DNA of 63,454 nt, counting the filler, from Phoronis australis (taxonomy: Eukaryota > Animalia > Phoronida): NCBI GenBank assembly GCA_002633005.1. It is 7 parts of 7 records of this genome, joined end to end, with 100 filler letters (N's around TTAATTAATTAA, not from the genome) between each part and the next. Parts side by side here need not be neighbours in the genome. Positions count along the whole stretch, not along the records: positions 5,264 to 12,545 come from NMRA01000549.1; 6 more parts are not named here. One strand, 5' to 3'. Shown here piece after piece: positions 3,501 to 38,009 of the stretch; positions within the stretch are counted from its first letter, which is position 1; each line of letters starts with the position of its first letter. The notes under the pieces are model-generated. The model ran no database searches. It was given only the letters and a program-made list of their open reading frames with translations, and was not told the DNA's origin. The position numbers and the translations under genes were made by a program.

Positions 3501-4158
3501 CACAGGCGTCCTCAGCTTCTGATCGTCCCCAATACACTACATATAATACTACAAGGTATGACATTCCCGACTAGAAATTCCACGGGTGCTTCACTTCAGC
3601 CCTCCATAGGGAACATAAAACTCAATAAATTTACACAAAACAAGGTTTCAACAAACTATTGGCAATTGTTCTTTCTTCCAATACCATTCACGGTCTCCTG
3701 TGCCGGCGACTTCGTAAGAAATTCGCAGTCAAAGAACAAAAATGTTCACAAAAAGCTCACACACACTTTTATCTTGGACCGCTCGGAAATTGCCAGTTCG
3801 TCGCGTAAAGTCACGATGTCGATAACGCCGTCCATCCGTAATTCATCGGTAATTTCCGTTCCTTCCTTGACCTTCAGCGGTCCAAGATGAAAGTGTGTGG
3901 GGGCTTTTGGTGAACATTTTTGTACATTGACTGCGATTTTCTTACGAAGTCGCCGGAACAGGACACCGTGAATGGTATTAGAAGAAAGAACAATTGCCAA
4001 TAGTTTGTTGAAACCTTGTTTTGTGTAAATTTATTGAGTTTTATGTTACCTATGGAGGGCTGAAGTGAAGCACCCGTGGAATTTCTAGTCGGGAGTGTCA
4101 TACCTTGTAGTATTATATGTAGTGTATTGGGGACGATAAGAAGCTGAGGACGCCTGTG
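3501..4158. repeat. Long inverted repeat (fold-back): arms 3501-3783 and 3876-4158, 92-bp spacer
   Basis: Arms are reverse complements over 283 bp with about 13 substitutions counted by eye. The near-identical antisense ORFs 3462..3890(+) and 3874..4197(-) reflect this. Confidence 0.97.
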
Positions 4159-4957
4159 AGTTTTTACCGAAATGAGCAAGCAGACACCGTCACGCAAGCG
4201 TTAGCCGAGCAAGGAAATACTGGTTTAAAGCAACCAACTTTAGAGGAAATTTTGAAGTCAGCAAAAGGTATGGCCGGCTCCGGGGGTGACTCTATTAGGA
4301 ATGACTTGAAGACAGCTTTTCTTTATCTTGACGTCCAGCAGTGTTTTAAGAATATGTTTCAAACGTGGATTGACTTAGCCAGGGGTATAGAGATGAAATT
4401 TGTGGATGAGTTACGAGAGAGGGGCCGTGAGACAGCGTTTTTGAATTCTGAGCTGAATGAACTGAAAACTCAAACGCAGAAGAAATTTTCGAACCTGGAA
4501 AGAGAGTTTGGCGACCAACAACAGTACATTCTGCGAAACGTGTTGGTTATATCTGGCAAAAGCGAAACTCAGGTTGAATGCACATATGACATTGTCATAG
4601 AAGTGGCAACCAAGATGAACGTGAACATCCAAAGGTCAGGTATTAGCCGCTCGCATAGAATGGGTAAAGTCATCCCCCGGGGCCAGAAGCCTCGTCCTAT
4701 TGTTGTAAAATTCACAACATATGATGCCGGTTCAGAGTTTATCCGGAATAGAAAAACGCTGTGGTCAGGAGATGCGGGTAGGCTTAGCATTTTCATCAAT
4801 GAGTCTTACGCAGAGGAGAACCGTGCTTTTCAAGGCAGTCAGAGATCTAGGACCCCGGATTAACAGTTACTGGACCAGAGACGGACGCACTTATTTGAAA
4901 GACAAGACTGATTGTATTCACCATGAGAAAGACCCGAAGGATTTGGAGAGCTTTTGA
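4156..4957 (+). mobile_element. Non-LTR retrotransposon ORF1-like protein (coiled coil + RRM + CTD, CR1/L2/L1-type), frameshifted
   Basis: Coiled-coil segment, then RNVLVISG, SRSHRMGK, PRPIVVKF, IFINES. A frameshift near 4806 continues as LTQRRTVLFK...YWTRDGRTYLK. This is the typical LINE ORF1p motif order. No ORF2 occurs before the contig ends. Confidence 0.8.
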
Positions 4958-7457: not shown

Positions 7458-8332
7458 TACTGCTTAACACACTTTTAAACATATACTTCTGGACTTTGCC
7501 CAACTGAGTAAGTGTCCACAGTCATAAAACTTGTAATATGGAAATAAGGTACAAGTCATTAATCCCAAATAAAAGATTAGAACAATCCCAAAAGTGACTT
7601 CACAAAACAAATAAAAGTAACATACACACTTATGAACCATGTTTAATGTTGTTAAGAACGTCTGCTCTTCTGAAGCAGGCCATTGTGTTTTTATGTTTGA
7701 TTTGATGTGGTTAAAATAAACGTACACTGACAAGTAACTTATAGGAGAAACGAACGTTTTTAATGTTATTTTTTTACTGAAAATGCCTACTGGCGTTAGA
7801 TGCCCCCCCCCCCCGCCACACACAGACAAAATTTCCATTTTTTCCAGAAACTTTCCACGCTCTCTGCTAAAGTTTAGACAGAAATTGCTCCCCTTCTCTG
7901 ACACGTCTTCATAGATTCAGCTGAGTCGAAGCTTTATTTCGCCCTGGCTGAAAACGTACATCGGACTTAGCCTTTTACTTTCATAAATCGATCTTGTGAT
8001 ATTCCTTTCCGTTGTAGAATTACATTTCCGTTACCAATTCCAGTCACAAGTAATGTGCCATTTTCGAATTTGAATTTTAAGGTTGCCAACCACAATAAAC
8101 TGAATTGTATGGGTGGAGTATAATTTTATTTCTATGTTCCATGAACAAGCGAGGCGAGTAAAGATTTTCAATGATTCAAATTCGGGTAAACAAGGACTAC
8201 ATTATTTTCCAAAAGCACAACATTTACCAAAGAATGTTGGAATGCAGAACAGTATAATTGCTTTACTTTGACGAATGTTTAAGCATTTCAGGTTGTAGCT
8301 AGTGACGAGTGAACACTGCAATGCGTTGTCAT

Positions 8333-11300
8333 TTATTTTCCGCCGCCACCGTTGTAACGCCTACACTTGCAATACTTGCAGCTCTGGACGGTGTACCAGT
8401 AGTAACCGTAGCGACAGTATTTGGGGCATTTGGGTTTGTGGCAGGCTCCTCTTACTGAAATAAAAATTAGTATTGTGAGGTGAGGAAATACTCATTTCGA
8501 ACTAACACAGTTTTGGACATCACCGAAAACGGCATCGTCCGTCCAAATTCAATGTCGAAGTGGAAGGTAGATTCTATACCTATAAAGCTTCCTACATATT
8601 TGAAAAACCATTGTTTTGTGTTTCATTAGTGTCGTGTAAAGATGATGCAAATTTTCTAAGCTAATTCACTTTTATCTGCAAGAAAATGAGTCGAAATGAC
8701 AATCCAAACGTCACCTGAATCCAACATAATTGATGTGGTTACAAGCGTTGTTTTTTACCTGCAGGTACATTTTTCTTTGAAACTAAAGAAATTCTGAAAT
8801 TATTAGAGCATCCATTGACTACTTTTATTTATATCTAAGTATGCAGACTCAACACTATGCGCACGTTCACAGGCTTTTAATCCAATAAAAGATGACAACA
8901 ACCAGGGAGTGACTAAGGCAGATGCTAATCCACTGTTAAGTTATCTCCGTCACACCTCCGAAAGTTTTAAATTAGAAGATATCTCCATGGCTGTGAACCG
9001 ATGAAACGGAACCGGACAATTGAGTCTTTAAGAGTCTACTCACCGCAGTTACATCCGACAGCTTTTCTGGCGTAGAATCTGACAAGACCACAATTCCTTT
9101 TGTGCCAAGGTGTGTATCCACAGTGACCGCAGTAACCATGAGTGACGAAGGTGACATATTTGGTTTGACATTTACCGTAATAACGTGAACGACAGTTGGT
9201 ACTGAAATGAAACGTAAGACCCTAATTCCTTATATCGCAGCTTCCTGACTGGACGTGGCGTCCACATTACTTATCTAAACCTTATAAAAGTATGAGGCGA
9301 AAACCCGAGATTCCCCACCAATAAAGACTCGCAGAAAATTGTACCAGAGTCAACAGCCTGCAGTTTTATAATTTAAAGTACTATAAAGCATTAACTGCAT
9401 TTCACCCCGCTAAAATGAAAGTCGAATTAGGCATTTTACTTATTACAAAATCGACTTCGTACTATTCCCAGTATCATGATAAGATTCTTGTTCAGTTAAA
9501 GGTGAAGGCAACTTTTTTCCATGTCATTTTGAGCTAAAATAAGATTGGTTTGTTATCCTAGACATATTTTCCACTTAATTACAGCTTTTCGTAATTTTAT
9601 GAATTACTCGTCTTCTACTCCGGAAGTGACGTTTTAGGAGGCAAGCATTTCGCGCTAATTTCTTTTCATATAGTCTGACTCTGAGAGCTGCCGAGTCAGT
9701 CATTGTTCTTCCTCGGTTGTGTTAAGTTCCGTCGTCGTTTGCTTTCATTTACTAGTGAGTCAACATGCCACGCTGTTGCTGCGTACCAGGATTTACGGCT
9801 CACGCGCGCTTTGGGAGTACCTTTGCATCGCTTTCCGATGGATGGCACACTTCGCCGTACTTGGCTTGTTCGTGTGAAGAACGCAGCGTTACCCGTCCAC
9901 GCAACGTACAAGGCAGTGGAGAATTACCGTGTGTGTGGCAAGCACGTTCTGCTGTCCAATTACGAAAGGATTTGTACGCTGAACTGATGAAGGTCCCTGC
10001 GAAACAACGAAGAAGGATGCCATTCCGTCTGTGTTGATTCCCGGCAGTGCCCCGTCGCCACCCCCGAGAAGTGCGTTTTTGAAGCGAGAAGCCTCGCGAG
10101 CTGTGGCCAGTACAGTGACTGGAGCCAGTGGAGGCACTTCATCTACTGTCACCCGTACCTCCGAACGCACCCCAAGAGCGTGCAATTCCTGGAACCAGTA
10201 CTGATTCGCCCTGTGCGGTTTTCTCCAGCCCAGAGCCTCTAAGCAGCCTTGCAGCGATATTGAGTAGTGGGAGTGATTACAGGCTCAGTTCGACACCCAG
10301 TGAAGAGGGCAGTTCGTCGTTCAGTGAACAGATCGGTGAGCCAAACTTTGATAAGTTTATTGTGGACTTGTCTAAAGTGTTGGAGCTATTTAGAAGGTGC
10401 CAGGTGTGTGGCGAGAGAGTCACACGACACGATGTAAGCAGTTTGGGTGCTCAGGTTACCATCCAGTGGGAGTGTGTCGCGGGACACTCTGGCAAGTGGG
10501 ACAGTTGTTCCTCGTTTCTCTCAACAGCTGCCTGTGCCTGTGCGTACTCTGCCTCGTTATACTCGGGCTCAAACATGTACCCACCCACTGAATGTCCGTG
10601 AAAAAATTCCTCGTCACCACTGCTGTGAACAAGGTCTCCGTTTCTCACACTACTGTCACTGATACGGGTCACCGACTCCAGCCATTTTCAGCTTACAACA
10701 CACTAAACAATCCCTAAATCCAACGTAGTTGAGTTCTCTACGAACCAATCTTGCCGCAGAATACTCGCCGATGGGAAGTGGTGGCGACAATTGTTGAAAA
10801 ACAGCATAAAACAAAAGTAGAATACAACAGATTCGCACGGTAAAGTCAACGCAAAACCAAGTGGCGGGAAACGCTTGCCTCCTAAAACGTCACTTCCGGA
10901 GTAGCGGACGAGTAATTTATAAAATAACGCCGAAAACCTGTAATTAAGTGGAAAATATGTCTAGGATAACCAACCAACCTTATTTTTGCTCAAAATGACA
11001 TGGAAAAAGGTTGCCTTCGCCTTTAAGAACAAGAACGTCAGTCGAAATCTTCAGCGACTCGGAGAAAACGCTTCCGTAGTTAATTGGGGTCGGCCTACCC
11101 TAAAACTGCGAATTCGAAAATGCGCAGGTACGCATTGCCTTTGACTTGATTAATTGGTAACGGAAAAGACATCGTGAGACCGATTTTATGAAAGTAAAAT
11201 CCTAATTCGATTGTCTTTTTTTTAACCAGTTAAACAGGTTGAAATGCAGTTTTAAGTTAAACAGGCTGTGCTTACTTTTCATGTTCACATGCAACATTCC

Positions 11301-11664
11301 TGATCGGATTTTTGTATCTGAATCCTCTGTACTCGTATGTTTTGAAAACTTTGGTGTGACAGCCTCTCGTCTTGCTCCAATTACGTTTTTTTTCAACGCC
11401 TTCCTCATTAGCATCTTTGCTTCTTTCGCCAATATCCGCTTCTTCACCTTCTTCTTCCTCTAAACCTCGATCTTCCTCATCCGCCTCTTCGTCATCTTCT
11501 GTCCCCTCCATTCTCTCTTGCGCCATTTCCTCGCTGCGTTCATCTACTGCTTGCCATGCGTCTTCACTCGCCGCATCTAGTTGCCTGGGCTCTTCAGCGA
11601 TGGCCAAATTCGAGATGAGCGCGAAGGTTAGTAGCCCGACAATACACTGTAACAAACAAAACAT
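8333..11664 (-). CDS. Secreted cysteine-rich prepropeptide, 222 aa (signal + acidic pro-region + KKR + cystine-knot-like domain + antistasin-like domain + GK); exons 11664-11276, 9201-9044, 8454-8333
   Basis: Donors gtaagc and gtgagt, tttcag acceptors, phases 2 and 1 consistent, 669 nt open. Mature part: NWSKTRGCHTKVFKTYEYRGFRYKNPIRNVACEHENTNCRSRYYGKCQTKYVTFVTHGYCGHCGYTPWHKRNCGLVRFYARKAVGCNC-VRGACHKPKCPKYCRYGYYWYTVQSCKYCKCRRYNGGGGK*. Confidence 0.88.
9765..10510 (+). pseudogene. THAP domain + N-terminal part of Kolobok transposase (frameshifted, truncated)
   Basis: MPRCCCVPG...LHRFP...RRTWL...VCGKH is a THAP signature split over frames. It is followed by KFIVDLSKVLELFRRCQVCG...IQWECVAGH, a CxxC...CxxxH zinc motif. 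No DDE core remains. Confidence 0.8.
10500..10686 (-). pseudogene. N-terminal relic of the convergent second Kolobok gene (KolX-like)
   Basis: Acidic N-terminus with GYMFEPEY, oriented inward from the right TIR and truncated where it meets the transposase relic. Confidence 0.55.
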
Positions 11665-13667
11665 TGTTGTCGGTTGAACGAAGTTGAACGTTGTATTGAC
11701 CTGTGCTCCAATAACTAGATATACACAAGTGGTCTTCCGAAACCAGCCCCTACACGGTTTGGAACCTCAAACGCAGTCAAATGCACCGCTAGCGGTTCTA
11801 AATCCCAATCGAAAAATAAAGTATTATAAACCTCATTTTAGGTGGTAAAATCACCACCCTTGATTTCAGCGAATGTCTGGCAGACAAATGTGATTTCCAA
11901 TAAAATCAAAGAATACTATGGATTTTGCTTTTTTCTTGCTTAAAAAGTCTTTCCCATAAGACAGTAACCCAAAAAATGAGTTTTCGACCGTAAAAACGAT
12001 AATGTCTGTTTAATATTCAATGCCTACAGAAAGTGCATACTTTTTTATTCCAAACCCTCCTTCGTTATATTTACCCTGGGAATATAAAATGTGTTCCAAA
12101 GGCTGTGCAAGGATGTAATAAGGTACACAATTTTTCATACTGCAGATTACTGCGATTCTCCCGAAAGGTGCAATTTTTCATAATTATTCAATATCATCTG
12201 GTAACTGGCCTACTTTATTTTCGATTGGTAATGCATAGTCGCTAGTTTAAGTGATTAGTAATATAAACTTATCGTAACAATCTTCAGATTTTTTCTAAAG
12301 CCAGCTCTTCATACCTGGAAACAGTAAAAGCAGCGAGTAATTTACATGTTGGATAGTCATCCTTATCGTTGCCAACAATTGGACGCCTTGCGCGCCGACA
12401 TCGTCGCTAAAGATGAGCATCGAATCGTAGTTGACTCCAAGACAGTAAAATCGATCACGCGGTATCGTTAAAAATGAAAATGCACGTAAATGAGCCTGTT
12501 TCCACGGCGGCAAACAAATCTAGCATTGCTAAACAATTCTTTCAGNNNNNNNNNNNNNNNNNNNNNNNNNNNNNNNNNNNNNNNNNNNNTTAATTAATTA
12601 ANNNNNNNNNNNNNNNNNNNNNNNNNNNNNNNNNNNNNNNNNNNNCCCGTCAAGTAACGCCGTAACCACATCTGAGTGCTTGGGGTGGGGCGAGGGAAAT
12701 AAATTTTCGTAATTTAAGAGCGTCGATCACTGATTCTACATGCATCGACGGAAGGAGAAAATTGACGATTCATTTCTTGTACTATAACATACTTCCACAG
12801 TCTTTCTAGGGACAGAATTATTGAAGAACAGGTGTGTCACTATGTCCGAGCTCCTACACGTGAGTTTCTTCAGCAAAACCGAACGACGACGAGAAATTGA
12901 GTTACGGCTGATATGGAAGGTGAGTCCCCTTATCAGTGGCTTAAATAGACCGACTGTTGTGTTTGTGCTGTGATAAAGGGGCATTAGTCACACCCAGGGG
13001 TATAATGATGGACAAGGAACACGCAACTCGCGTGAGTTGGAGAGCAAAATGAGAGCTGATAATCATCCGGTGAATGTGCAGACATTGTAAGCCAAATTAG
13101 TTTTGAACCCCTATCGCACTGGAACTTAAAAGGGGACTGTAGTCAAAATTATGTTGTAGTTAATCGGTTCTAACATACAAATAAAACTCACATTTGCCTT
13201 ACTTGCGTGCCAAACAAAAGCCGATTCGTATTCACGGTCAAAACACTAAATCCTGAAAGCGATCGCTGATTGGCTGATGTGTCAGTGACGTGAATGGCGG
13301 GGTATCGGCTGCTTTACACATTCATTGCTTATGTCATATTTTGAAGAGTTTACATCGTAATTTATCATTGTATCAATCGTACTTATTTTTGTTGTTTGCC
13401 ACAGTGCTGTAAAAGGTTCGCTATGTCTATTTGTATGGCTGTATGACACCGGGTTCCTCAAACTCTTCGAAAAAGGTGTCTTCTAAAGGGATGGCCATCG
13501 CATACCATCGCCGGGTTACCCAAGCCTTGGCCAAAAGCTGTATACTAAATATAGGCCTACAGGTTTGAGCAGACATGGGTAAAAAATGGAGAAAATAAAT
13601 TCTGACTCAAAATTAATGCCATTAAAACTAATCTCATCCTTGAGTAAACCTATTAACCAGGTTCCTA

Positions 13668-22704: not shown

Positions 22705-24067
22705 TGTTGTGAAAGTTTTTAGAGTTGCTTCCTGTTATTTTCCTGTAGAATATTGAATCATAAAGTTTGGTGCATGCAACCCACATATTATTTGTGACTT
22801 GTATATAAATCCGTTCACTTGTCTAATAAAGACAGTCCTCATCTTGCTACTGCCAGTTGCTTTACTAGTGTAATTGAGTGTTCCACACTTAGTTACTGAA
22901 TACAACCATCTTACTGACGGACCGAGACTGTCCACAACACAACACAACGCTGCTACTAAGTCGAGTTATTCTCCACTATTCTACTACATAGCCAGAATTT
23001 CCCCACATTTTCTGGTGCCGTGGCCAACAGAGGACAAGAACCGAGAACCAACCGGCTTGACTCAACCAGCGACGACACAACGCCAACTGCAAACTACTAC
23101 AGTCTCAAAGACGATCACGACGATCACGACGACCATTAACTACAACGAAGTATGGATCTCGCCCAGAAACGCCAACAACAAGCCAGAAAGCACATCGAAC
23201 GCTACATTGATGAAGTCACCGACATGATGCAATCGCTCCAAGCCAAGGACCTCAAAACGCTAGACAACCGTCTTAGCGTCATTCGTGTTGTTGCTTTCGA
23301 TATACTTCTAATGGTCTTTGAACTTTTAGAACTCATGCCAGACGACGCCGAAAAACTCATTTACCTGGGGGACACCGACGACTTCCTCATGGAAACCTAC
23401 TGCCTGTTCAGCGATCTCCAGAATCAACGAGATGATATGTTTGAACTACTGAAGACCACGCCAGCTCCGCCATCCACAGCGCCTGCCGCCGCCAGCCCAA
23501 CCACAACAATGCCCGTAGACCCTGCCACGACTACAGCAACCACACCACCATCTACTGACCCAGCGACTGCCACACCGATAATCAGCAGCCCCACAACTCC
23601 TGCTGCCATGACTACTACGACTGCCGGAACAATGCCGGCCACCTCTACGCCTGCCACAACTATGCCAACAACGACCATGCCTGCCGCACCAATGCCGGCC
23701 GACGCCTCGACTGCAACAATGACGCCCACTGCCACGCCAATAGCTGCCTCCGCGACTACAACTACACCGCCTATGACGACTCCATCCGTGCCGAAACGAA
23801 CTCAACTACCGAAAATACAGCTTCAGAAATTCTCTGGAAATGTGCTTGAATGGATGTCATTCTGGGATTCATTCAACGCAGCCATCCACTCTGATGACCT
23901 CCTGCAACCTGTACAAAAGCTACAGTACCTACGGTCCTACCTTTTGGGAGATGCCCTCAAGGTAATAGACGGATTTCCACTGACAAACACAAACTACGAA
24001 GATGCCCTGACCGTTCTCCAACGACGATACGCCAAGCCAGAAGTTTTGCTCCGCAAACTCCACGATG
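22705..24067 (+). mobile_element. BEL/Pao LTR retrotransposon, 5' fragment (LTR about 22705-23007, PBS 23013, gag from 23152)
   Basis: TG...CA LTR candidate with gtatataaa and aataaa. PBS tggtgccgtg is complementary to the tRNA-His 3' end. The gag is nearly identical to 25120 onward and stops at an N at 24068. Confidence 0.8.
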
Positions 24068-24069
24068 NC

Positions 24070-24650
24070 TGCATGCCAAGGACAACAAAGTCGCTCAATG
24101 TTGTCGCTATGAATCGCCAAAATGACAGCTCTAGCCGTGGTGTACGTGCCACTGCTTTTGCAACATCACTGGTATTTGAAGAGTATGAGCATAATCTGAC
24201 TTATGAGCTGAAGGGAATGCGTCAACATCTTGTGATTATTGCCTAAAGAATGGAAAAGTAACACCTTTTCCATCAGAGAACAACAGCAGGTGACGCAAGA
24301 AAGTGTTTGTGCCAGTAGAAAAGAAAAATTTCTGTTCTAGTAGAAGACCAAATGAAGGCTTCAAGATACAGTGCAACAACTGCGACACGTGGCACTGTTA
24401 CAGGTAAAGTACATTAAGAACACAGAATACAACAAGAGAGAAGATTATAGATTATTATTTCTCACCTCTTGGAGAAGAGCCACCTAAAAGAAAAACACAA
24501 ACTAAGATCCAAGAGCAACCTGCCAAGATGAAAGAAAATGACTGCTAGTATGATGACATCCTCCCATCAAATGCCTGGCTAAATGACATCCACATTGATG
24601 CTGTTTGACAGGTGATCAAGCAAGCACTTAACGTGCAGAGTTCCTTCAAC
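24070..24650 (+). pseudogene. Degenerate Ulp1-like cysteine-protease / PHD module (transposon-associated relic)
   Basis: RQNDSSSRGVRATAFATSL...MRQHL...KVTPFP resembles the Ulp1 Q.N..DCG..A.AFA...MR.HL...FP tail with the catalytic Cys lost. It is followed by IQCNNCDTWH (PHD-like) and AWLNDIHID. Confidence 0.5.
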
Positions 24651-24697
24651 TCCGGAATTGGTTACGTAACAATCTGCCTTATTTAGTCTAGCTTCCT

Positions 24698-27600
24698 TGT
24701 GACGTGGAATCATTTATAAGAATTGTTTGTGTTATAGTTAGTCATTTCCTTAGTATTAGCCCACGTGTCATGGTTATTTGTCAATGATTGTGTATATAAA
24801 TGACTTGGAGTGCAGAATAAAATCAGTTGCCATTTAGTCAGCACAACGACTTGTTATTTAGATAGGTTCACTGCTGAACTGTCTAGTTATCACCACTGTG
24901 TATCTACCGACACTGCGAGGCAACTCACACGGCGAACCCCTATACTACATAGCCAGAATTTCTCCACATTTTCTGGTGCCGTGGCCAACAGAGGAGAAGA
25001 ACCGAGAACCAACCAGCTTGACTCAACCAGCCTGCTGCCAGCCCAGCGACGACACAACGCCAACTGCAAACTACTACAGTCTCAAAGACGATCACGACGA
25101 CCATTAACTACAACGAAGCATGGATCTCGCCCAGAAACGCCAACAACAAGCCAGAAAGCACATAGAACGCTACATTGATGAAGTCACCGACATGATGCAA
25201 TCGCTCCAAGCCAAGGACCTAAAAACGCTAGACAACCGTCTAGGCGTCATCGCACAACAACGAAAGCTATATGAAGATTACCAGAAAGAACTTTTAGAAC
25301 TCATGCCAGACGACGCCGAAAAACTCAATTACCTGGGGGACACCGACGACTTCCTCATGGAAACATACTGCCTGTTCAGCGATCTCCAGAATCAACGAGA
25401 TGATATGTTTGAACTACTGAAGACCACGCCAGCTCCGCCATCCACAGCGCCTGCCGCCGCCAGCCCAACCACAACAATGCCCGTAGACCCTGCCACGACT
25501 ACAGCAACCACACCACCATCTACTGACCCAGCGACTGCCACACCGATAATCAGCAGCCCCACAACTCCTGCTGCCATGACTACTACGACTGCCGCAACAA
25601 TGCCGGCCACCTCTACGCCTGCCACAACTATGCCAACAACGACCATGCCTGCCGCACCAATGCCGGCCGCCGCCTCGACTGCAACAATGACGCCCACTGC
25701 CACGCCAATAGCTGCCTCCGCGACTACAACTACACCGCCTATGACGACTCCATCCGTGCCGAAACGAACTCAACTACCGAAAATACAGCTTCAGAAATTC
25801 TCTGGAAATGTGCTTGAATGGATGTCATTCTGGGATTCATTCAACGCAGCCATCCACTCTGATGACCTCCTGCAACCTGTACAAAAGCTACAGTACCTAC
25901 GATCCTACCTTTTGGGAGATGCCCTCAAGGTAATAGACGGATTTCCACTGACAAACACCAACTACGAAGATGCCCTGACCGTTCTCCAACGACGATACGC
26001 CAAGCCAGAAGTTTTGCTCCGCAAACTCCACGATGCCATCCACGCCGAGCCGCCACCGAGTACAGATACTGCCAGCCTTCAACGCTTCCACGACCAGATG
26101 GAAACGCACGTGAGGAAACTCCACAACCTTGGGAAAGAGGAAGCCACATACAACGATTTTGTGGTCCACACCATCACTACGAAACTGCCCCAGAACCTGA
26201 TGACACAACTGAGCCGTGATCATGGTGCCAATCCATGGACAGTCACAGAACTACTGCAAGCCCTTGACAACGAGGTCACTGCCCGACAAGCCAGCCGAGA
26301 CAACGCTCCTGTAAGTACTGACAGTTTTTCCACCGCCAACTTCTACGTCAGTTCACGATCCAATCATCAGATGTCCCATACATCCCGATTTCAAAGGGAC
26401 CCCAACCGCCGACAGCACTCCACATCCCCTCAACCACGACGCCAGCAATTTCAACACCAAATGCCGAGATATCTGCAACGACCAGCGACCAACAACGCTC
26501 AACACTCCTGTGTTTTTTGTTCTCAACCTCATCAGTCTCACAGCTGCCCAGTTATATCTGATGCCGGAGGCCGCCTAGAAGTTATACGACGACAGAAGCT
26601 GTGCTTCAATTGTTTCAAGAACCACACAGCTGCAGAATGCCGAAATCCACACTCATGTAAAAACTGTAATGGAAGACATCACACCACCATATGCTCTGCT
26701 CTCCGCCAAGGACAGTCACACCAGTCTCAGCAGTCTGCCCGACCACACCAAAGCCAGGGCTCACCCAACCGAGGACAACCCGCTCATGTCAACATGATGT
26801 CCAACGAGTATGCTCCACCACCTGCACTACCCAACTACAACCTGCCACAAGTCCCTGCCCCAGTGCAAACACCCGTCCCACCTGTGCCTGCAACCGCTGC
26901 ACCACCACTGCCAGCCACTCATGTGAAATTGACACCAACGTCTGGACCTGTTTTATTGAAAACAGCTGTTGCAACAGTCTCCAGTGGTCAACACAAAGCC
27001 AAGGTCAACATCCTGCTAGATGAAGGCTCACAACGGACATTCATTAGTCAACAGACAACTGACAAGCTACAGATTGATCCCAGCAGATGCCCTGTGGAGA
27101 CCATTAATTTGTCAACATTTGGAGCTGACCAGCCAACACAGCAATGTAACCCGATCACCAGCATTGATTTGGAAACTAAACAAGGTACCCTACAGTTATC
27201 AGCACTAATTGTCAACAAGATTTCACCGCCTATGGCCAATTACACACCCCAGGTCTTGGAACATTATGGATATTTATCGACTCTGCCTACTGCACCCCAC
27301 GCTGACGGATCAACGATGGACATCGATTATTTTTGGTCCATTGTTGGAAATCACACAATTCGTGGTCCAGGACCCACAGCTGTTGACTCTAAACTCGGCT
27401 ATTTGATGTCTGGTCCAACCAATATCTCCGCGCCCACACAAACCATGATGACAACGACCTGCCTACTCACTGAAACAGAGGACACCACCCACGATGACCT
27501 CATAACTCGATACTGGGACCTAGAGACCATTGGCATAACAGATAATTCAGTGCAAATTACACAAGATTTTGAAGCCTACCGGGAAACCAGCATCACTCAA

Positions 27601-30600
27601 GACGCGGACGGTAAATACACTGCCCGTTTGCCATGGAAAGCCGACCACCCCTTCCTGCCATCGAACTACGGAACTACCTACCACAGAACTCGATCCCTGG
27701 TGCGCCGACTGCCCGCTGAGACCCTCGCTGTCTACAACAAAATCATCCAAGAACAGCTAGACAGAGATTTCATCGAAATGGTACCCCGACACAACCCTTC
27801 GGAAAGTCATTATATTCCACACCACTGCGTGAAGAAAGACAGTGTTACCATGCCCATCCAAATCGTCTATGACTGCAGCTGTTCTTCCAAGGAACACCCC
27901 AGCCTGAATGACTGCTTAGAAGTTGGACCTCCACTCNCGACTGCCCGCTGAGACCCTCGCTGTCTACAACAAAATCATCCAAGAACAGCTCGACAGAGAT
28001 TTCATCGAAATGGTACCCCGACCCAACCCTTCGGAAGGTCATTATATTCCACACCACTACGTGAAGAAAGACAGTGTTACCAAGGAACACCCCAGCCTGA
28101 ATGACTGCTTAGAAGTTGGACCTCCACTCATGAATGACCTGCTACCCATTTTGTTGAGGTTCCGCTCCCACCCCATCGCACTCTCCAGCGACATTGAGAA
28201 GGCCTTTCTCAACGTACGACTTCACGAAGATGACCGTGATTACACCAAGTTCCTGTGGCTCAGCGACCCATCTGACCCTGAAAGCCCATTTCAGGTGTAC
28301 CGATTCAAGTCCGTACTGTTTGGATCTCGCAGTTCGCTCTTCATTCTACACTCCGTGTTGAAAACCCACCTCGAGAAGTACAACTCGTCAACTGCGGAAG
28401 ACATCAAAAACAACATTTACGTCGACAATGTCCTCACTGGTGCACACAACAACAGTTCGCACACCAGCCAACCAAACAAAGAGGTCACGTCAACCGCCAA
28501 CCCACAGAGTACCACTCCAAATGCTCAGGTGCACCTGGCACCCACAGCAAGGCCAGTTTTGTTGAAGACTGCCGCTGCCAACATTGAGAGAGAGAGAGGC
28601 ATCGCACTAAGGTAAATAATTTATGCGATGAAGGTCCGCAACGAACGATTCTGACTGCCAGGGCCGCCCAGCACTTGAATGTTGACACTGACCGTGCTAC
28701 TAGAGAAACGATCGACTTATCCACTTTCGGATATTCTACTGCCCAACTGCAGGTACTGTGAGCGGCGGGGCTGTAACCGGTAATAATGGCATCAAACTTG
28801 AACCAGNGATAAAATGACACGTGATTGATGAAAAGCGCCATCTGTTAGCCGTAAAGGTTTTGGATGAGCGGGTACCTTTTGCGCCGAGCACCCATTCCTG
28901 CCATCGAACTACGGAACTACCTACCACAGAACTCGATCCCTGGTGCGCCGACTGCCCGCTGAGACCCTCGCTGTCTACAACAAAATCATCCAAGAACAGC
29001 TCGACAGAGATTTCATCGAAATGGTACCCCGACACAACCCTTCGGAAGGTCATTATATTCCACACCATTGCGTGAAGAAAGACAGTGTTACCACGCCCAT
29101 CCGAATCGTCTATGACTGCAGCTGTTCTTCCAAGGAACACTCCAGCCTGAATGACTGCTTAGAAGTTGGACCTCCACTCATGAATGACCTGCTACCCATT
29201 TTGCTGAGGTTCCGCTCTCACCCCATCGCACTCTCCAGCGACATTGAGGAGGCCTTTCTCAACGTACGACTTCACGAAGATGACTGTGATTACACCAAGT
29301 TCCTGTGGCTCAGCGACCCATCTGACCCTGAAAGCCCATTTCAGGTGTACCGATTCAAGTCNCTGTTTGGATCTCGCAGCTCGCCCTTCATTCTACACTC
29401 CGTGTTGAAAACCCACCTCGAGAAGTACAACTCGTCAACAGCGGAAGACATCAAAAACAACATTTACGTCGACAATGTCCTGACTGGTGCACACAATTCC
29501 ACAGAAGCAGCACAAACCTACATGGATTCTAATGCAATCCTACAACAAGGTGGTTTCAAGTTACGATCATGGAGCACTAATGACCCACATCTGCAGCAGA
29601 AGATGAACACAGACAACACTGGTGATTCAACCCAAGTGGTCAACGCTCTGGGACTGAAATGGAATACCACAACAGATCAACTTGGCTTCAATCAAGACAG
29701 CCATCAGCATACCGGTGACATAACCAAGCGACATGTCCTGAAGATGACTTCAGCTCTATTTGACCCACTGGGATGTTTAGCTCCAGTGCACATCCAAGCG
29801 AAATGCTTCATTCAACGATTGTGGTTACAGAAGATTACCTGGGATGAACAACTGTCTCCTGATCTATGCAAGGAATGGACAAAGACATCTGACGAATTAT
29901 TTCATTCAACAATTGTGGTTACAGAAGATTACCTGGGATGAACAACTGTCTCCTGATCTATGCAAGGAATGGACAAGGACATCTGACGAATTAACAAAGG
30001 CCAGATCAATCAATTTGCCAAGAAGATATTTCACAACAAGCCAAGCCGATGCCTACGATCTACACATATTTGCTGATGCCAGTAAACAAGCCTATGGCAG
30101 TGTAGAATACCTGACAAATGGAACCCACACTGCCCTTACACTCGCCAAGACTAGAGTAAAACCAACGAAGGACGTCACCTTGCCCCGACTGGAACTCATG
30201 GGAGCACTGATTGGTGCCCGCCTTGCACAATTCCTCAAAGACGCATTTCAACACCAACATCAAGATCCGCAACACCTACTTATGGAGTGACAGCCAAATA
30301 ACCCTCCACTGGCTCTCTTGTGAACGTAATCTGCCAACATTTGTCGCCAACAGAGTCCGAGAAATACGGGACGCCAAATTCACAGCCATCAGATACTGTC
30401 CAACCAAGAGCAACCCTGCCGACCTGCTGACCCGTGGTATCTCAGCCTCCCGCCTTCAACAATCTACGCTCTGGTGGCATGGTCCCGAGTGGCTACTCAG
30501 TGGCGAATGGCCCGAAGATTGCATACCCGACACCACAACACTGTCATGCATGGCAGACTCATGCAACACCCTTGACGGAATTCTTGGGAACCTGACACCT

Positions 30601-31800
30601 TCCCTGATGGACAACAATGACAGACAACTTGACACTGTACCTGCTACTGTCAGCCTGACGGTATTCTTGGGAACCTGACACCTTCCGTGATGGACAACAA
30701 TGACAGACAACTTGACACTGTACCTGCTACTGTCAGCCAGGATCCGCCACCCGCACCGCCACCTACCGCGCCCATTGGCATACAACACGCCATAGATATG
30801 AACAGGTTTTCGACGCTTCCTAAGCTGTTACAAGTTACAGCTCATGCCCTCAAGTTTGTTGCCAGATTACGCAAGAAGACAACCACAGTTGGACCCATCA
30901 CTACAGACGATATCCAGACTGCAAGATTCCTATGGCTACATCATATCCAAGAGCAGCACTACAGTACAGTGATTCAAGTTTTGAATGGTGCCAAGCAGAC
31001 ATCTCCATTGGTGCGACAATTGAAACTATTCCTAGATGAAGACGGTTTACTCCGATGTGGAGGGAGACTTGACAATGCCAATATACCTTACCACAACAAA
31101 TACCCGATCCTGCTACCACCGACATCACCATTCTCAACACTGCTGATCAAGGATGCACACCAGAGGTCACTCCATGCAGGAGTAGTTGGAACCATGATAC
31201 AGATCAGACAGCACTACTGGATCCCCAAACTGCGACAGACCGTCAAGAGCATATTACGCCGCTGCGTTAGATGTCTGAAAGTTATTGGCAAACCATACGT
31301 ATATCCCATACTTTTACCAGCCGATTGCGAGTTTACGAGGCTGATTGTACGATCAGCGCACCATGCAATGTTACATACACGAGTTCTGTCAACTACAGCG
31401 TACATCCAACAAACATATTGGATTCCACGCATCCGCCAAATTTTCAAAGCTGTTATTCGAAAGTGTGTTACCTGCTTGAAAGTTAATGGGATATCTTACA
31501 GTGTACCTGTGGAGCCACCTTTGCCTAAATCCCGACTAGAAAAAGCGCCACCATTTACCGTTACTGGAGTGGACTTCACAGGGGTACTATACGTACTACA
31601 AAAACGCGCAATCGCGACAAAACAAATGCTGCGTTTGTTTGTTTACCTGTGCGGTTACTAGAGCTGTTCACCTGGAGCGTGTGACTGACATGTCTACTGA
31701 GACATTCATCAATGCCTTCCGCCGTTTCGCCAGCAAACGATCTCTACCTACCAATGTGATGTCTGACAATGCTACTATACCTTTCAATCTCCTGGTGAGG
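24698..31800 (+). mobile_element. BEL/Pao LTR retrotransposon (5' LTR about 24698-24968, PBS 24974, gag-pol from 25120), rearranged, no 3' LTR
   Basis: LTR ending ...tctccaca, tRNA-His PBS, and BEL domain order gag-PR-RT-RH-IN. Internal duplications occur at single Ns. Confidence 0.93.
25120..27951 (+). CDS. BEL/Pao Gag-protease polyprotein portion
   Basis: LPKIQLQKFSGNVLEWMSFWDSF (DUF1759-type), three Cys/His knuckles (CVFCSQPH..C, CFNCFKNH...C, CKNCNGRHHTTIC) and aspartic protease LLDEGSQRTFI. Confidence 0.9.
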   Translation: MDLAQKRQQQARKHIERYIDEVTDMMQSLQAKDLKTLDNRLGVIAQQRKLYEDYQKELLELMPDDAEKLNYLGDTDDFLMETYCLFSDLQNQRDDMFELLKTTPAPPSTAPAAASPTTTMPVDPATTTATTPPSTDPATATPIISSPTTPAAMTTTTAATMPATSTPATTMPTTTMPAAPMPAAASTATMTPTATPIAASATTTTPPMTTPSVPKRTQLPKIQLQKFSGNVLEWMSFWDSFNAAIHSDDLLQPVQKLQYLRSYLLGDALKVIDGFPLTNTNYEDALTVLQRRYAKPEVLLRKLHDAIHAEPPPSTDTASLQRFHDQMETHVRKLHNLGKEEATYNDFVVHTITTKLPQNLMTQLSRDHGANPWTVTELLQALDNEVTARQASRDNAPVSTDSFSTANFYVSSRSNHQMSHTSRFQRDPNRRQHSTSPQPRRQQFQHQMPRYLQRPATNNAQHSCVFCSQPHQSHSCPVISDAGGRLEVIRRQKLCFNCFKNHTAAECRNPHSCKNCNGRHHTTICSALRQGQSHQSQQSARPHQSQGSPNRGQPAHVNMMSNEYAPPPALPNYNLPQVPAPVQTPVPPVPATAAPPLPATHVKLTPTSGPVLLKTAVATVSSGQHKAKVNILLDEGSQRTFISQQTTDKLQIDPSRCPVETINLSTFGADQPTQQCNPITSIDLETKQGTLQLSALIVNKISPPMANYTPQVLEHYGYLSTLPTAPHADGSTMDIDYFWSIVGNHTIRGPGPTAVDSKLGYLMSGPTNISAPTQTMMTTTCLLTETEDTTHDDLITRYWDLETIGITDNSVQITQDFEAYRETSITQDADGKYTARLPWKADHPFLPSNYGTTYHRTRSLVRRLPAETLAVYNKIIQEQLDRDFIEMVPRHNPSESHYIPHHCVKKDSVTMPIQIVYDCSCSSKEHPSLNDCLEVGPPLXTAR

Positions 31801-31842
31801 CCACCATACAATGGGGCTATTCGGAAAATCTACAATAACTAG
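28943..31842 (+). pseudogene. BEL/Pao Pol (RT, RNase H, integrase), frameshifted
   Basis: SLNDCLEVGP, SSDIEEAFL, YVDN (RT); FADASKQAYG, LPRLELMGA, WSDSQI, NPADLLTRG (RNase H region); HHCC zinc finger, GVDFTG, TRAVHLE, SDNAT (integrase). Confidence 0.92.
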
Positions 31843-33305
31843 AGGGCGTTCGTGTACTAGTGGTGATAGATTAACAGCCTCGATTTCGCGAGCCCTTTAA
31901 ATACATGGTGAAATGGCTTGCAGCCGNNNNNNNNNNNNNNNNNNNNNNNNNNNNNNNNNNNNNNNNNNNNTTAATTAATTAANNNNNNNNNNNNNNNNNN
32001 NNNNNNNNNNNNNNNNNNNNNNNNNNTGAATAATGGACATTGCCCGTTACTCGACTTTTATCTACAACGCTTAATTTTTTGTTTGAATGCGGTATTTAGG
32101 GATGTTTTTTTACTTTTTTTGAAATACCCATGTGTCATACATTTTTGAAAAGCCCTTGGTGTGAGCAATGAAATGGTGCAAAAATCAGGAAAAATTGGGT
32201 GAGCGGTTACCGAGAAAATGGCCGTTGAAACGCAACAATTATGCATAAAATATCTGCCTTCTTACATAATTTCGTAAAAAATAAAAGAATATACATGTGC
32301 TGCAAATAAAAATTGAGACAAACATGGTGGTGTGTATTATATACAATTTGGATCGATTTCTACAGAGATATTGCTGTTATGAGTGTTAGCATATGGAACA
32401 GGCTCATCATGAACCTCATGTTTGATAAAAACAATGGATTGCACAGCTTTAAAGGTAAAGAGCAAAAAACAACATATCAGCTCAAAAATAAATACATCTG
32501 AGCTAGGAAGAAATTTCACATCAAACCACAAAACAACATTGGTTGATTTGGGGAGAGGCAAGGCCCCCCCCCCTAAAAACTCCCAGATTTCATTTGGCAG
32601 TGTGAGGGTGCAAATATCTTACGGGTGAAATCCTGCGTAATACTCTGCCCTGCTCCCCATCTAAAAATCCTAGATCTGCCCCTGAATACTACTACATGGG
32701 CAACACATCATGGCCCGACAGGGGGCTGTGGAAGGCTATAGCACCCCCACTTTTTTCAGTGCTGGGTGCCACCCATGTACTATTTGATCGTATCATAGCA
32801 AAAAACATCAGAAAGTAGACAAAAGACCATGATTTGGGAAAACAAATCACTCTTAACATGAACGATTTCATCATTTACGCAACAAAAACACTTTGTAACA
32901 ACTTTATTTCGAACGGTGAAGTTACCATGCCCGAACTTCAACGTAGCCGCTCGTGGCGTCGACGTGCGACGACTTAGTGAACTAACGACTGCTGTTTGAA
33001 AAGTGCCAATTGGCGCAGCAGTTTGACAGAATTTCAGGAAAACATTTCGTAAACATGATTCATGGCTTCGCATGAATGATTCGTGGGTTCGTAGATGATT
33101 CTAAGTTCCTGAACTTCTGGAAGGATTTTCTAATGGACATGATAACATTTAACAAATCAGACAAATACGTTTTATTAAAATAATACATCATAATTCTTTT
33201 CAAAATCTCTAAGGAATGTAGAAGTCAAAATGGCGCAATCAGACGACATGGCGAAAAGCGAACGTCTGGCGATGGATCGTCCGATTCAGTTCATCATTAC
33301 AGTAG

Positions 33306-36300
33306 TGTTGTGAATGTTGGTTTGTGTGGTCTCGTCTTTCGTGTTGTCTTGTGTGTTCGTGTTCGTCCGTGGGTTTCCGTCAGTGGCCGGATGTTGTAAG
33401 TTCTAGTTTTGTCACGTGAATGGGGAATCGAGATCTGAGCTCTCTTCGTGTGGCTCTGCTGCACGCAGGACGTCTGCGTTTGTGGGTCGGCATCTCAAGC
33501 GTGTATTCAAGCTTTCATATGAGTAGAGGTAAGCTGCACGAGAACCTGTGTATCAAGTCACAACATTTGGCGTAGTTGGCTACGTGCAGTTTCCACCTTT
33601 GCACCGAGTGGCGGGTAATTCAAATTTTCGCGAATTATTTTACTCTTGTCATTCGGTACCACCCGTGTCGTAGCGGGTAGGTCACTGAACACGGGTGTTC
33701 AGCTGTTTCGTTTATTATATTCTTCATTTTTCATTTTTGTCTAGTAAATATAAGTACCATTAGTATAATTTTTATTTGGTATTGTTTTCAAGTTCAGTCT
33801 TTTCAGACCTACATTTAATTAGTGCCACACCCTTTGTGGTACCATAACATGGCGTCCAAGATTCTAATCAATTCTTGTGACGTTACAACACTGTTGGACC
33901 TTCCGGGTTATGACTACTGATGTTGCTGCTGCAGTTATGGACTTCAGAGCAATATTAGCTATTACTCCGGAGAATGTGTGCAAGANACATTTAATTAGTG
34001 CCACACCCTTTGTGGTACCATAACATGGCGTCCAAGATTCTAATCAATTTTTGTGACGCTACAACACTGTTGGGCCTTCCGGGTATGACTACTGATGTTG
34101 CTGCTGCATTTATGGACTTCAGAGCAATATTAGCTATTACTCCGGAGAATTTGTGCAAGATACATTCCAGTTGGAAGCCAACCAAGACTGTACAGAAGTC
34201 CATAGACTTTACAGTCCCATGCGGTCTGCCAGAAGATTTGGAGGAAGTAGTCAAGGTTTGTGACGAATATGGTAAGAAAACCTCATCAATACTTACCTCT
34301 AGCCCTGACTATTCATTTTCCAAGTTGGCAGCTAAACTGACTCCGTCGTCAGAGACTGGTAGTGGCGTTGCTTATGCAAAGTCTCATTCGCATACTAGCA
34401 TGTCACCTATGCCCTCTGGCTCTGGCACTCATTACCTGTCACGTCTCCCACGCAACCTAATCTTTAGTGGCAAGTTAGGTACATGGGAGGACTTTCTATG
34501 GAAGTTCAGTAATGTTGCCCGAGACAATTTTTGGTCAGGTCAAAAATGTAGAGCGGAGCTGGGCATGTGCTTGGAAGGTGATGCCTCTCGTTGGTTTTTC
34601 AACCATATTAAAGCTCATCCACACTCAAGTTTCGACCAAGTTGTGGATCATATGACCTATCGTTTTGGGGCAGATGTCGAGTGCAATGAAGTGCACCAAC
34701 TTAGGTTCCAGTCAGCCAAGCAGACTTCTGACGAGTCCTTAGAACAATGGGCTGACCGTCTTACAAGTTTATTGCTGTTGGCCTTTCCAGAGGCGAGGGA
34801 CTCTGATAAAGCTCAGGCGGTTCTTCGGTTCTGTTTAGGTCTACAGGATAGAGAGGTTGCGCAGTTGGCTATAAACAGTCGACCAAGTACACTCATGGCT
34901 GCCTTGAATGCCGCTAGGTGGTTTTCAACAACCAAAGACTTGATGGCTACTTCCAATTCACCGAAGTCAGTATCTTTTTGTAGAGAAGGGAATATGGAAG
35001 GAGATGAAGTTGCTGTTCGCCAAGTAACCAAGAAGCCAGATCTTAAGTTCATTCCTCGTAGCTCCTTAGAGTCTCGATTAGATGTTCTTGAGGGTAGGTG
35101 CAATGACTTAGATGCGTCGGTTTCATTTCTTATGACTGACAATGCTAAGCTTCATAAGAAGATGGATGAGTTAAAGTCTGACCTTTTAGAAAATCGGAGG
35201 GAAGTATCAAACAATTTTAACAAGTTGTTTGCAATGTTACAGACACAGTCGCCGAAGCGACCTTCTCCATCTTCACCAAGAGTTTCACCGAGTTCCTCTC
35301 AGGGAAGATCTTCTAATCCTCCTCCCAGGTGTTTCAAGTGTGGAAAGCTGGGTCATTATCAGTCGGCTTGTTGGAATTCTGTTTCAGCTCGTCGAATGAA
35401 CTTTGACCTCCCTGACAGTAAGAAATTAGTTGGCCTGTTAGGTTTCTTGAAAAAATCGGTTCAGAAATTCATGAAACGTACTAGTTCAACTGAGGCTTTC
35501 CTTTCCAAGACAGCTGAGTCATCTACTCAGACTGCTGGTGAGTTCTCTGTACCTTCAACTGAAGATGATAGAACTGTATCTAATCCAGTAGATAGTATTG
35601 AAGTTTCAGACCCATCAGTTGATAAGATTGCATATGACTCATTGATTACTCAAGATGTTGCAGTTACTGTTTCACAGAATGTCCCACTAACTCCAGGGGG
35701 GCTGTCTCAGCCTGATTTCATACGAGATGTGGCAGTGAGTAGGAACGTCTGTGTCTCTCCTGCAGCGTCAATTGGTGAGTCCGTTCCAGAGACCATAAAG
35801 ATTAAGAAGAGTGCACGTGCATTTCTTCCCAAAGTAGACAAATGTGTTGGAACTAGGCAAGTGATTACGAATCCTGACTCCAACCCTACACTGGCTACTC
35901 AGTCACTTTCTCCATGTGACCTTGACGAGACAGATTTCGGTCTGTCCGGCATTTTTGCTTCAGATGGTGCAGATAATGAAAAGTTTGATCTGAAACCTGA
36001 TGGCTGTTTTATTTATAACAATACAACATCTCCGAATGTTTTAAATATTTCAGCTAAACAGTCCGCAGATCCTGATTTTTCTTTCATTATTAATCGTGAG
36101 GTCACGCAACCAGCAGACCTCATGTTCTGTCCACCATTTGTTAATTTTCTGTAGTAGCTTACTGCGCTACCTTGCTGTTGCTTGTTGTTTTGTGCATTAT
36201 ATGTTTTGTGTTCATTACTTGTTCATATGGTCCAAATGTTAATATTTTTTTTTTAAAAATATATAGTACAGTAAATTCTTCTTGTTACAAGTTTAATTTT

Positions 36301-37887: not shown

Positions 37888-38009
37888 TATATGGCACTAG
37901 CAGAAGAGGTGTAAGGGCTGGAATCCTCCAAGGTAGGGACGTGACAAAGTCTTATCTCAACGCTGATTGGCTTTTCCCAGATGTTGCGTAATGGCGATTA
38001 TCGATTAGN

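What the first reader, a model, noticed from the sequence alone, without database searches (positions are those of the whole stretch)
8333..11664. Hidden 3-exon precursor joining a cystine-knot-like domain to an antistasin-like domain behind an acidic toxin-style pro-region
Seen: splicing gives 222 aa. It has a signal peptide of about 23 aa, a 70-aa Glu/Asp-rich pro-region and a KKR site, then a 128-aa K/R/Y-rich mature chain with 15 Cys ending GGGGK. Domain 1 has 9 Cys with C...C...C...CQTKY...GCNC. Domain 2, on its own phase-1 exon, is C-x4-C-x3-C-x11-C-x2-C-x-C with CxYG. Known: the CQxxY...CxC pattern is typical of Spaetzle/neurotrophin/IL-17-type cystine knots, domain 2 spacing resembles antistasin protease-inhibitor modules, G-K is an amidation signal, and acidic-pro/cationic-mature design is typical of toxins and antimicrobial peptides. 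Inference: an exon-shuffled secreted effector coupling a growth-factor or Toll-ligand-like fold to a protease inhibitor, perhaps disulfide-dimeric (odd Cys count). I do not recognise this architecture.
Basis: partly seen in the sequence, partly recalled or inferred. Interest (0 to 1): 0.85.

Follow-up and report, generated by a model that had tools for sequence, protein, structure and literature searches.

The report
Orphan cationic cystine-knot secreted protein
This is a real, spliced animal gene, active in only some samples, for a small protein that is likely secreted and cut to release a strongly positive, cysteine-rich chain, predicted to join a growth-factor-type knot to a leech-inhibitor-like tail that likely cannot block proteases, and likely used in defence; no relative was found.

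Summary
The gene is real. One correction: its start codon (11664) is intronic. Reads splice at 11646 to an exon missing from the window, so there are at least 4 exons and about 220 aa. The acidic pro-region (68 aa, net -26), KKR site and 128-aa mature chain (15 Cys, net +24) are confirmed. Six cysteines of domain 1 are spaced 23/6/7/38/1, against 22/5/7/35/1 in Noggin's knot (76 of 20,000 random placements with the CxC fixed; reference chosen afterwards). I read it as a cystine knot of the Noggin/Trunk/IL-17 type (about 70%), not shown by any profile or fold hit. Domain 2 has hirustasin's disulfide distances but proline at the P1 position, so the protease-inhibitor reading is weak. No homologue turned up, but only single-exon pieces of 35-52 aa could be searched or folded. 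Expression differs over 15-fold among three runs. Best reading: an orphan cationic defence or surface effector stored behind a charge-neutralising pro-region; a cytokine-like ligand is the main rival. Novelty: new variant; interest 0.52.

The parts
11596..11646 (-). Rest of the signal peptide (17 codons) at the start of the first exon present in the window; spliced in phase 0 to an upstream exon that is missing from the window and codes M-K-L-K
   Evidence: Loose ends at 11648 in 34 (X2) and 4 (X3) reads; frame check; hydropathy peak 2.78; cleavage site inferred, SignalP not run
11392..11595 (-). Acidic pro-region, 68 aa, 32 Asp/Glu, net charge -26
   Evidence: read depth 53-64 in X2
11383..11391 (-). 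KKR, likely prohormone-convertase site
   Evidence: sequence; cleavage inferred
11276..11382 (-). First half of domain 1 (mature residues 1-35; predicted knot cysteines I and II around finger 1); donor after 11276, phase 2
   Evidence: junction reads
9202..11275 (-). Intron, 2074 nt (547 nt without the inserted element)
9496..11026 (+). Kolobok-like DNA transposon remnant inside the intron: TTAA at both ends, AGG termini, about 170-nt inverted repeats 89% alike, broken THAP-like frame, many related copies in reads
   Evidence: family traits from PMC6004289 passages; Pfam gave no family for the piece tried
9044..9201 (-). Second half of domain 1 (52 whole codons, 7 Cys; predicted knot cysteines III-VI plus three extra cysteines at the tip of finger 2)
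   Evidence: model with a two-strand hairpin, residues 12-21 and 41-51, pLDDT 66
8455..9043 (-). Intron, 589 nt, phase 1
8333..8454 (-). Last coding exon: six-cysteine antistasin-like tail (spacing 4/3/11/2/1, Pro at the P1 position), GGGGK end, stop
   Evidence: model pLDDT 75.6
8108..8332 (-). 3' untranslated region with an AATAAA near 8130
   Evidence: read depth in X2 down to the 8108-8261 bin; the poly(A) site itself was not seen
11647..11664 (-).
12546..12645 (.). Nearest assembly gap upstream; a candidate place for the missing first exon (inferred, not shown)
   Evidence: gap list; upstream-exon letters not found in the window

Best explanation
A spliced, sample-restricted gene encodes a precursor of about 220 aa that is likely secreted and likely cut at KKR to free a 15-kDa, strongly cationic chain, predicted to be a Noggin/Trunk/IL-17-type cystine knot with an antistasin-like tail, which likely acts as a defence effector binding negatively charged microbial or tissue surfaces. 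Shown: gene structure, expression pattern, composition and cysteine spacing. Inferred: the acidic pro-region (-26) pairs with the mature chain (+24) and keeps it soluble and inert until cleavage; knot disulfides join mature Cys 8-47, 32-86 and 39-88; two of Cys 60/63/73 close the tip of finger 2 and the odd one is free to link chains; the tail is a rigid basic and aromatic module rather than a working canonical inhibitor, because proline sits at P1. My odds: knot fold 0.7; antistasin-like disulfide topology 0.6; tail not a trypsin-family inhibitor 0.8; defence or surface-binding role 0.4.
For: Both junctions in reads and strand-specific. Depth on the pro-region exon about 60 in X2, 2-5 in X3, 0 in X4; my arithmetic gives about 30, 2 and 0 reads per kb per million. 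Charges -26 and +24, pI 9.7, 18% aromatic. Knot spacing 23/6/7/38/1 against Noggin's 22/5/7/35/1 (cysteine numbers from PMC9034678): matched by 3 of 20,000 random placements, 76 of 20,000 with the terminal CxC fixed, 23 of 3,000 for 15 Cys in 128. The second half alone is modelled as one long hairpin ending at the CxC, and 2 of the 3 chains reaching Z 2 among 48,161 are cystine-knot proteins (IL-17A Z 2.2, Gremlin-1 Z 2.0). Tail: Cys2-Cys5 and Cys3-Cys6 distances 19 and 17 equal those of hirustasin (Cys29-48, Cys33-50), whose P1 follows Cys29 (PMC3014083); here that residue is Pro, while leech members carry Arg, Lys or Met (PMC6265900). That anionic pro-pieces neutralise cationic defence peptides is recalled knowledge.
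Against: No family or homologue backs the fold: Pfam 0 families for 3 of 3 mature pieces. The Z scores are far below what the tool calls meaningful, and the top row (Z 2.5) is not a knot. Four of five models of the second half had pLDDT 37-42. The Noggin reference was chosen after I saw the spacing, so the chance figures are too favourable. Published IL-17 motifs match only 12 of 41 positions, reached by 417 of 10,000 shuffles and by 813 of 10,000 with cysteines fixed. The tail model matched no solved antistasin structure. No activity was measured, the tissues of the runs are unknown, and about 30 reads per kb per million is modest for a gland or mucus product. Cationic and aromatic make-up fits ligands that bind heparan sulfate and adhesive proteins too.
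Confidence: 0.4

Rival explanations
1. A fast-evolving cytokine or growth-factor ligand (IL-17/Trunk/Noggin-like). The knot would bind a receptor or a BMP, and the basic tail would hold it on heparan sulfate or matrix.
For: Knot spacing. Invertebrate IL-17s keep all six knot cysteines and share little sequence (PMC11087794; PMC4517768). Modest, sample-restricted expression suits a signal. The end of domain 1 matches 5 of 11 positions of IL-17 motif 2.
Against: Overall IL-17 motif score is marginal (813 of 10,000 shuffles with Cys fixed). No Pro-rich clip-like stretch precedes the knot (sequence; clip described in PMC9071555). Net +24 with a matching acidic pro-region is unusual for receptor ligands (recalled). 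No conserved orthologue was found.
Confidence: 0.3
2. A structural or adhesive secretion (mucus, cement, cocoon or shell-coat protein) that cross-links through Tyr/DOPA, Lys and the spare cysteine; the acidic pro-region would prevent early aggregation.
For: 16 Tyr, 27 K/R, 14 Gly, 15 Cys in the mature chain. Antistasin-like and cystine-knot domains occur in limpet adhesive mucus proteins (PMC7333891 passages). A leech cocoon-wall antistasin/notch-like protein is cited in the reference list of PMC7851590 (title only).
Against: No repeats; expression is modest in the best run; a clean KKR site and possible amidation point to a soluble bioactive product (inference).
Confidence: 0.13
3. A venom or mucus toxin acting on prey or predators.
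For: Signal, acidic pro-region, basic cleavage site, cysteine-rich cationic mature chain and possible amidation are the usual toxin precursor layout (sequence; recalled knowledge). Sample-restricted expression.
Against: No toxin family hit in Pfam or PDB sequences. Single copy in the window. Host and tissue unknown.
Confidence: 0.1
4. One reading: a growth-factor or Toll-ligand fold coupled to a working antistasin-type serine protease inhibitor.
For: Tail cysteine distances equal hirustasin's, and a C-x-Y-G motif is present.
Against: Pro at P1; no Pfam antistasin hit; no PDB sequence hit to leech inhibitors at E up to 10.
Confidence: 0.07

Closest known systems
Noggin / Noggin-like / Trunk / PTTH cystine knots (human Noggin as tested reference)
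   Same: Six cysteines spaced 23/6/7/38/1 against 22/5/7/35/1; extra cysteines inside finger 2, with 12 residues from the last of them to knot cysteine V as in Noggin (Noggin's Cys207 and Cys215 are recalled, not from a call); secreted.
   Different: No clip-like segment, no Pfam hit on the separate halves, no terminal C-x-C-x-C; adds a long acidic pro-region, net +24 mature chain, a third cysteine at the finger-2 tip and a six-cysteine tail.
Invertebrate six-cysteine IL-17 (type T1A of PMC11087794)
   Same: All six predicted knot cysteines; A-V-G-C-x-C end resembles IL-17 motif 2 (5 of 11 positions); R-Y-x-x-x-I-x-x-x-x-C is in register with motif 1 (4 of 16); weak fold row IL-17A Z 2.2.
   Different: Total motif match is near chance once cysteines are fixed; lacks the DPNR-P core; has a long acidic pro-region and a tail.
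Antistasin family (hirustasin, guamerin, piguamerin; MEROPS I15)
   Same: C-x4-C-x3-C start, C-x-Y-G, C-x-C end; Cys2-Cys5 and Cys3-Cys6 distances equal hirustasin's.
   Different: Pro at P1 instead of Arg/Lys/Met; one six-cysteine module fused behind a larger domain; no Pfam, PDB-sequence or fold hit.
Spaetzle / neurotrophin / coagulogen knots
   Same: Pro-region cleavage frees a C-terminal knot; C-Q-x-x-Y after knot cysteine IV resembles Spaetzle (recalled).
   Different: Spacing against these families was not tested here; no Pfam hit on the halves.
Cationic defence peptides with anionic pro-pieces
   Same: Signal, acidic pro-region, basic site, cationic cysteine-rich mature part, possible C-terminal amide (layout recalled; amidation of such peptides noted in PMC13208793 passages).
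   Different: Mature chain is 128 aa in two domains, much larger than defensins, with a predicted growth-factor knot.

Membership tests
Cystine-knot growth-factor superfamily | Six cysteines in knot order with a terminal C-x-C and family-like spacing | tested here: met
   Cys 8, 32, 39, 47, 86, 88; spacing 23/6/7/38/1; 76 of 20,000 random placements with CxC fixed fit Noggin as well (reference chosen afterwards)
Cystine-knot growth-factor superfamily | Two beta-hairpin fingers and I-IV, II-V, III-VI disulfides | tested here: inconclusive
   Only the second half could be folded: one long hairpin, pLDDT 66 in 1 of 5 models; IL-17A Z 2.2 and Gremlin-1 Z 2.0 are weak; whole domain not folded
Cystine-knot growth-factor superfamily | Profile match (Pfam Noggin, IL17, Spaetzle, NGF) over the whole domain | tested here: inconclusive
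   0 families for the two halves scanned separately; the spliced domain was not scanned
Noggin (canonical BMP antagonist) | N-terminal clip segment before the knot | tested here: not met
   Only 7 mature residues precede Cys I and the pro-region is an acidic low-complexity stretch; clip described; judged by eye
IL-17 | Three conserved IL-17 domain motifs in order | tested here: inconclusive
   12 of 41 positions; 417 of 10,000 full shuffles and 813 of 10,000 Cys-fixed shuffles reach it
IL-17 / Trunk / Spaetzle | Dimer that binds its receptor | not testable with these tools
   No genome held, so no receptor to test; odd cysteine count only allows a dimer
Antistasin-type inhibitor (I15) | Six-cysteine C-terminal module spacing | tested here: met
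   4/3/11/2/1; distances 19 and 17 equal hirustasin's Cys29-48 and Cys33-50
Antistasin-type inhibitor (I15) | Arg, Lys or Met at P1 directly after the P2 cysteine | tested here: not met
   Residue is Pro; P1 position and residues; register assumed from the spacing
Antistasin-type inhibitor (I15) | Profile or fold match to antistasin | tested here: inconclusive
   No Pfam family, no PDB sequence hit, no fold match for a 39-aa model; short queries are insensitive
Amidated secreted peptides | C-terminal Gly plus basic residue, amide shown by mass | tested here: inconclusive
   G-K-stop present, but an RR pair at mature 120-121 could remove the end; mass not testable

The most novel reading that the evidence does not exclude
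A growth-factor-type cystine knot of the Noggin/Trunk/IL-17 lineage has been turned into a directly acting, strongly cationic antimicrobial or toxic effector, stored behind a charge-matched acidic pro-region and fused to an antistasin module that has lost its reactive site: an architecture and use of the fold that my searches did not find in print.
Probability: 0.25. Interest if true: 0.8.

Novelty: new variant of a known kind. Interest (0 to 1): 0.52.

Why it matters
Growth-factor cystine knots are known mainly as receptor ligands or ligand traps. One that is built like a defence peptide precursor, with a non-inhibitory antistasin tail, would show the fold being recruited as a direct effector, and would give a stable, testable 15-kDa scaffold. 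Even on the signalling reading it is an unannotated, expressed orphan ligand that protein databases miss. The gene is small and its junctions are read-supported, so the tests are cheap. The limit is that it is one gene without relatives or measured activity.

Tried and rejected
No genome is held, so paralogues, orthologues and receptors could not be sought; within the window tblastn found only the gene itself. Homologue searches, all on single-exon pieces: word search of 5.8 billion proteins, no candidate for the 52-aa half among 92-2000 aa proteins or for residues 88-129 of the pro-region exon among 70-226 aa proteins; the tail was not searched there. phmmer of the 52-aa half against 1.84 billion representatives gave 1 hit, P0004, rejected as a sum of 7 weak repeat matches of about 25 bits that keep none of the terminal knot cysteines. 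Atlas: no usable hit for either half of domain 1. PDB sequences: 1 unrelated weak row each, E 0.5-4.5. Metagenome contigs: 0 of 152 pattern matches confirmed and 0 matches for the upstream-exon letters. Foldseek: 2 rows at E above 5 for the half domain, 0 for the tail; second look 0 of 2; wide search 0 of 48,161 for the tail. Co-folding the two exon-coded halves of domain 1 gave 'no answer' (score 0.00); it is not used as evidence. The eight Pfam rows for the pro-region exon are acidic-composition noise below their cut-offs. Run X1 (contigs) covers the transposon but not the exons. A search for PTTH cysteine numbers found nothing usable, so PTTH spacing was not tested. Earlier-findings look-ups by place and sequence were blank, as were two by words. 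Rejected: the signal-peptide exon at 18506-18434 as this gene's first exon (phase 1 donor against a phase 0 acceptor, and it differs from the read letters).
Full report
1. Observation. The minus strand holds coding stretches ending at 11276, at 9201-9044 and at 8454-8333, with GT-AG introns of phase 2 and 1. RNA reads confirm both junctions: 8454/9044 in 37 reads of run X2 from 24 start sites, and 9201/11276 in 30 reads of X2 and 3 of X3; none is listed for X1 or X4. All junction reads have the first mate on the plus strand, which in most stranded libraries means a minus-strand RNA. About 18-19% of each raw run was read. The three raw runs come from one study and were added by species label; 159 of the 210 X2 reads laid on 11040-12545 were at least 99% alike, and no difference was listed inside the exon.

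2. Correction. Depth is zero from 11652 to 11804 in all three raw runs. 34 reads of X2 and 4 of X3 leave the window at 11648 into one common sequence. The loose-end consensus reads M-K-L-K in frame with C-I-V-G-L-L. It is absent from the window at up to 3 mismatches in 22 letters and has no match better than 11 mismatches in 30. The first exon therefore probably lies in an assembly gap, the nearest being 12546-12645 (inferred). The precursor is about 220 aa on at least four exons: about 21 aa signal (cleavage inferred), 68 aa pro-region, KKR, 128 aa mature chain. Only 30 letters of that exon were seen, so an earlier start is not excluded.

3. Anatomy. The pro-region has 32 Asp/Glu and net charge -26. 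The mature chain has 15 Cys, 27 Lys/Arg, 16 Tyr, 14 Gly and 3 Asp/Glu, net +24, pI 9.7, about 15 kDa (the two junction residues counted as X). Cysteines lie at 8, 32, 39, 47, 60, 63, 73, 86, 88 and 93, 98, 102, 114, 117, 119. Basic pairs occur at 70, 81 and 120, and an N-glycosylation sequon at residue 1. Depth on the pro-region exon is about 60 in X2, 2-5 in X3 and 0 in X4; by my arithmetic about 30, 2 and 0 reads per kb per million. Tissues and treatments are unknown.

4. Domain 1. Human Noggin's knot cysteines are 155, 178, 184, 192, 228, 230 (PMC9034678, passages), spacing 22/5/7/35/1. Cys 8, 32, 39, 47, 86, 88 give 23/6/7/38/1. Random placement fits as well in 3 of 20,000 trials, in 76 of 20,000 with the terminal CxC fixed, and in 23 of 3,000 with 15 cysteines in 128 residues. 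I picked Noggin after seeing the pattern and tested no other family this way, so these figures flatter the match. The 52-aa second half folds, without an alignment, as one long hairpin (residues 12-21 and 41-51), pLDDT 66 in the best model and 37-42 in the other four. Foldseek found nothing useful. The wide search gave 3 of 48,161 chains at Z 2 or more: a phage chaperone (2.5), IL-17A (2.2) and Gremlin-1 (2.0), the last two aligned to the CxC end; all are far below a trustworthy Z. Published IL-17 motifs (PMC4517768, passages) match 12 of 41 positions, reached by 417 of 10,000 shuffles and 813 of 10,000 with cysteines fixed: marginal. Noggin, Noggin-like, Trunk and PTTH form one family (PMC9071555, passages), and Trunk is the closest relative of IL-17, whose invertebrate members keep six knot cysteines with little sequence likeness (PMC11087794, parts 1-2 of 6 read). 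I put the knot at about 0.7 and do not file it in a named family.

5. Domain 2. Spacing is 4/3/11/2/1. In hirustasin P2 is Cys29, P1 Arg30, P3' Cys33, with bridges 29-48 and 33-50 (PMC3014083, passages). The tail has the same two distances, 19 and 17, but the residue after its second cysteine is proline. Leech members have Arg, Lys or Met there (PMC6265900, passages). A proline would not fit the S1 pocket of trypsin-family enzymes (established knowledge). The model reaches pLDDT 75.6 with a hairpin but matches no solved structure; Pfam and PDB sequences give nothing. So it looks like an antistasin module in topology and likely does not work as one.

6. Relatives. None found. The single phmmer hit, P0004, is a repeat artefact. 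Every query was a single-exon piece of 35-52 aa and the spliced domain was never searched or folded, so this blank is weak. No genome is held. The host is an animal whose neighbouring sorting nexin 30-like exon is 67% identical to gastropod proteins (3 hits among 6 candidates); this hints at an invertebrate, perhaps a lophotrochozoan, without an identical database entry, and does not fix the phylum.

7. Mechanism. Most likely the precursor enters the secretory path, the acidic pro-region masks the cationic chain, a convertase cuts at KKR, and a disulfide-locked, basic and aromatic two-module protein is released that binds anionic surfaces in defence (0.4). Rivals: cytokine-like ligand with a matrix-binding tail (0.3), adhesive or structural secretion (0.13; PMC7333891 passages), toxin (0.1), ligand plus working inhibitor (0.07). 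Gene, splicing, expression pattern, composition and spacing are shown; secretion, cleavage, fold, dimer and function are inferred.

8. Novelty. No paper held all of 'spaetzle', 'cystine knot' and 'antistasin' (24 held two, 20 listed), and none held 'noggin', 'antistasin', 'domain' and 'invertebrate'. One paper held four of five terms on knot growth factors and anionic propeptides, and it is unrelated (PMC13208793, passages). Searches were seen as listings; passages of PMC7851590, PMC7483449, PMC6004289 and bioRxiv 2024.05.28.596352 were also read. The library lacks most subscription papers, and I read no supplements; the IL-17 and Trunk sequence sets of PMC11087794 and PMC4517768 may hold relatives. 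Earlier notes of this scan describe other orphan invertebrate knots, so orphan knots as such are not rare; the tail and the charge design are what stand out. Verdict: real gene, start corrected, new variant of a known kind, interest 0.52.

Noticed in passing
window 9496-11026: Kolobok-like non-autonomous transposon in the gene's intron: TTAA at both ends, AGG termini, about 170-nt inverted repeats, frameshifted THAP-like frame near 9760-10030. Related copies give depth of 150-450 on both strands in all three raw runs, far above the gene. The bases flanking the TTAA form a short inverted repeat.
   Followed up: partly
window 18560-18434 (-): An exon with a strong acceptor, an ATG at 18506, a 24-aa signal-peptide-like frame (hydropathy peak 3.27) and a phase-1 donor; likely the start of a second secreted-protein gene whose other exons I did not find. 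No reads were laid there.
   Followed up: partly
window about 44500-49850 (-), perhaps to 55500: Sorting nexin 30-like gene (BAR-domain exons at 49780-49646, 48692-48624, 47198-47106, 46400-46290, 45835-45683), 67% identical to gastropod proteins over one exon.
   Followed up: partly
window 23000-31850 (+): BEL/Pao-type LTR retrotransposon in several overlapping, partly duplicated pieces (DUF1759, DUF1758, protease) with a Thr/Pro/Ala-rich insert in gag; the duplications flank single-N joins and may be assembly artefacts.
   Followed up: no
window 33300-39070 (+): A second retroelement gag with zinc knuckle (719-aa frame at 33995-36154), partly duplicated.
   Followed up: no
   Followed up: no
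window 3501-4158: 283-nt inverted repeat, 95% complementary, 92 nt apart, next to a LINE ORF1-like frame at 4123-4863 (label recalled, Pfam gave no real hit).
   Followed up: no
window gaps 5164, 12546, 31927, 50253, 58064, 60567: Six 100-nt gaps carry the same 12-letter all-frame-stop spacer in the middle, an assembly mark; true gap sizes are unknown.
   Followed up: no
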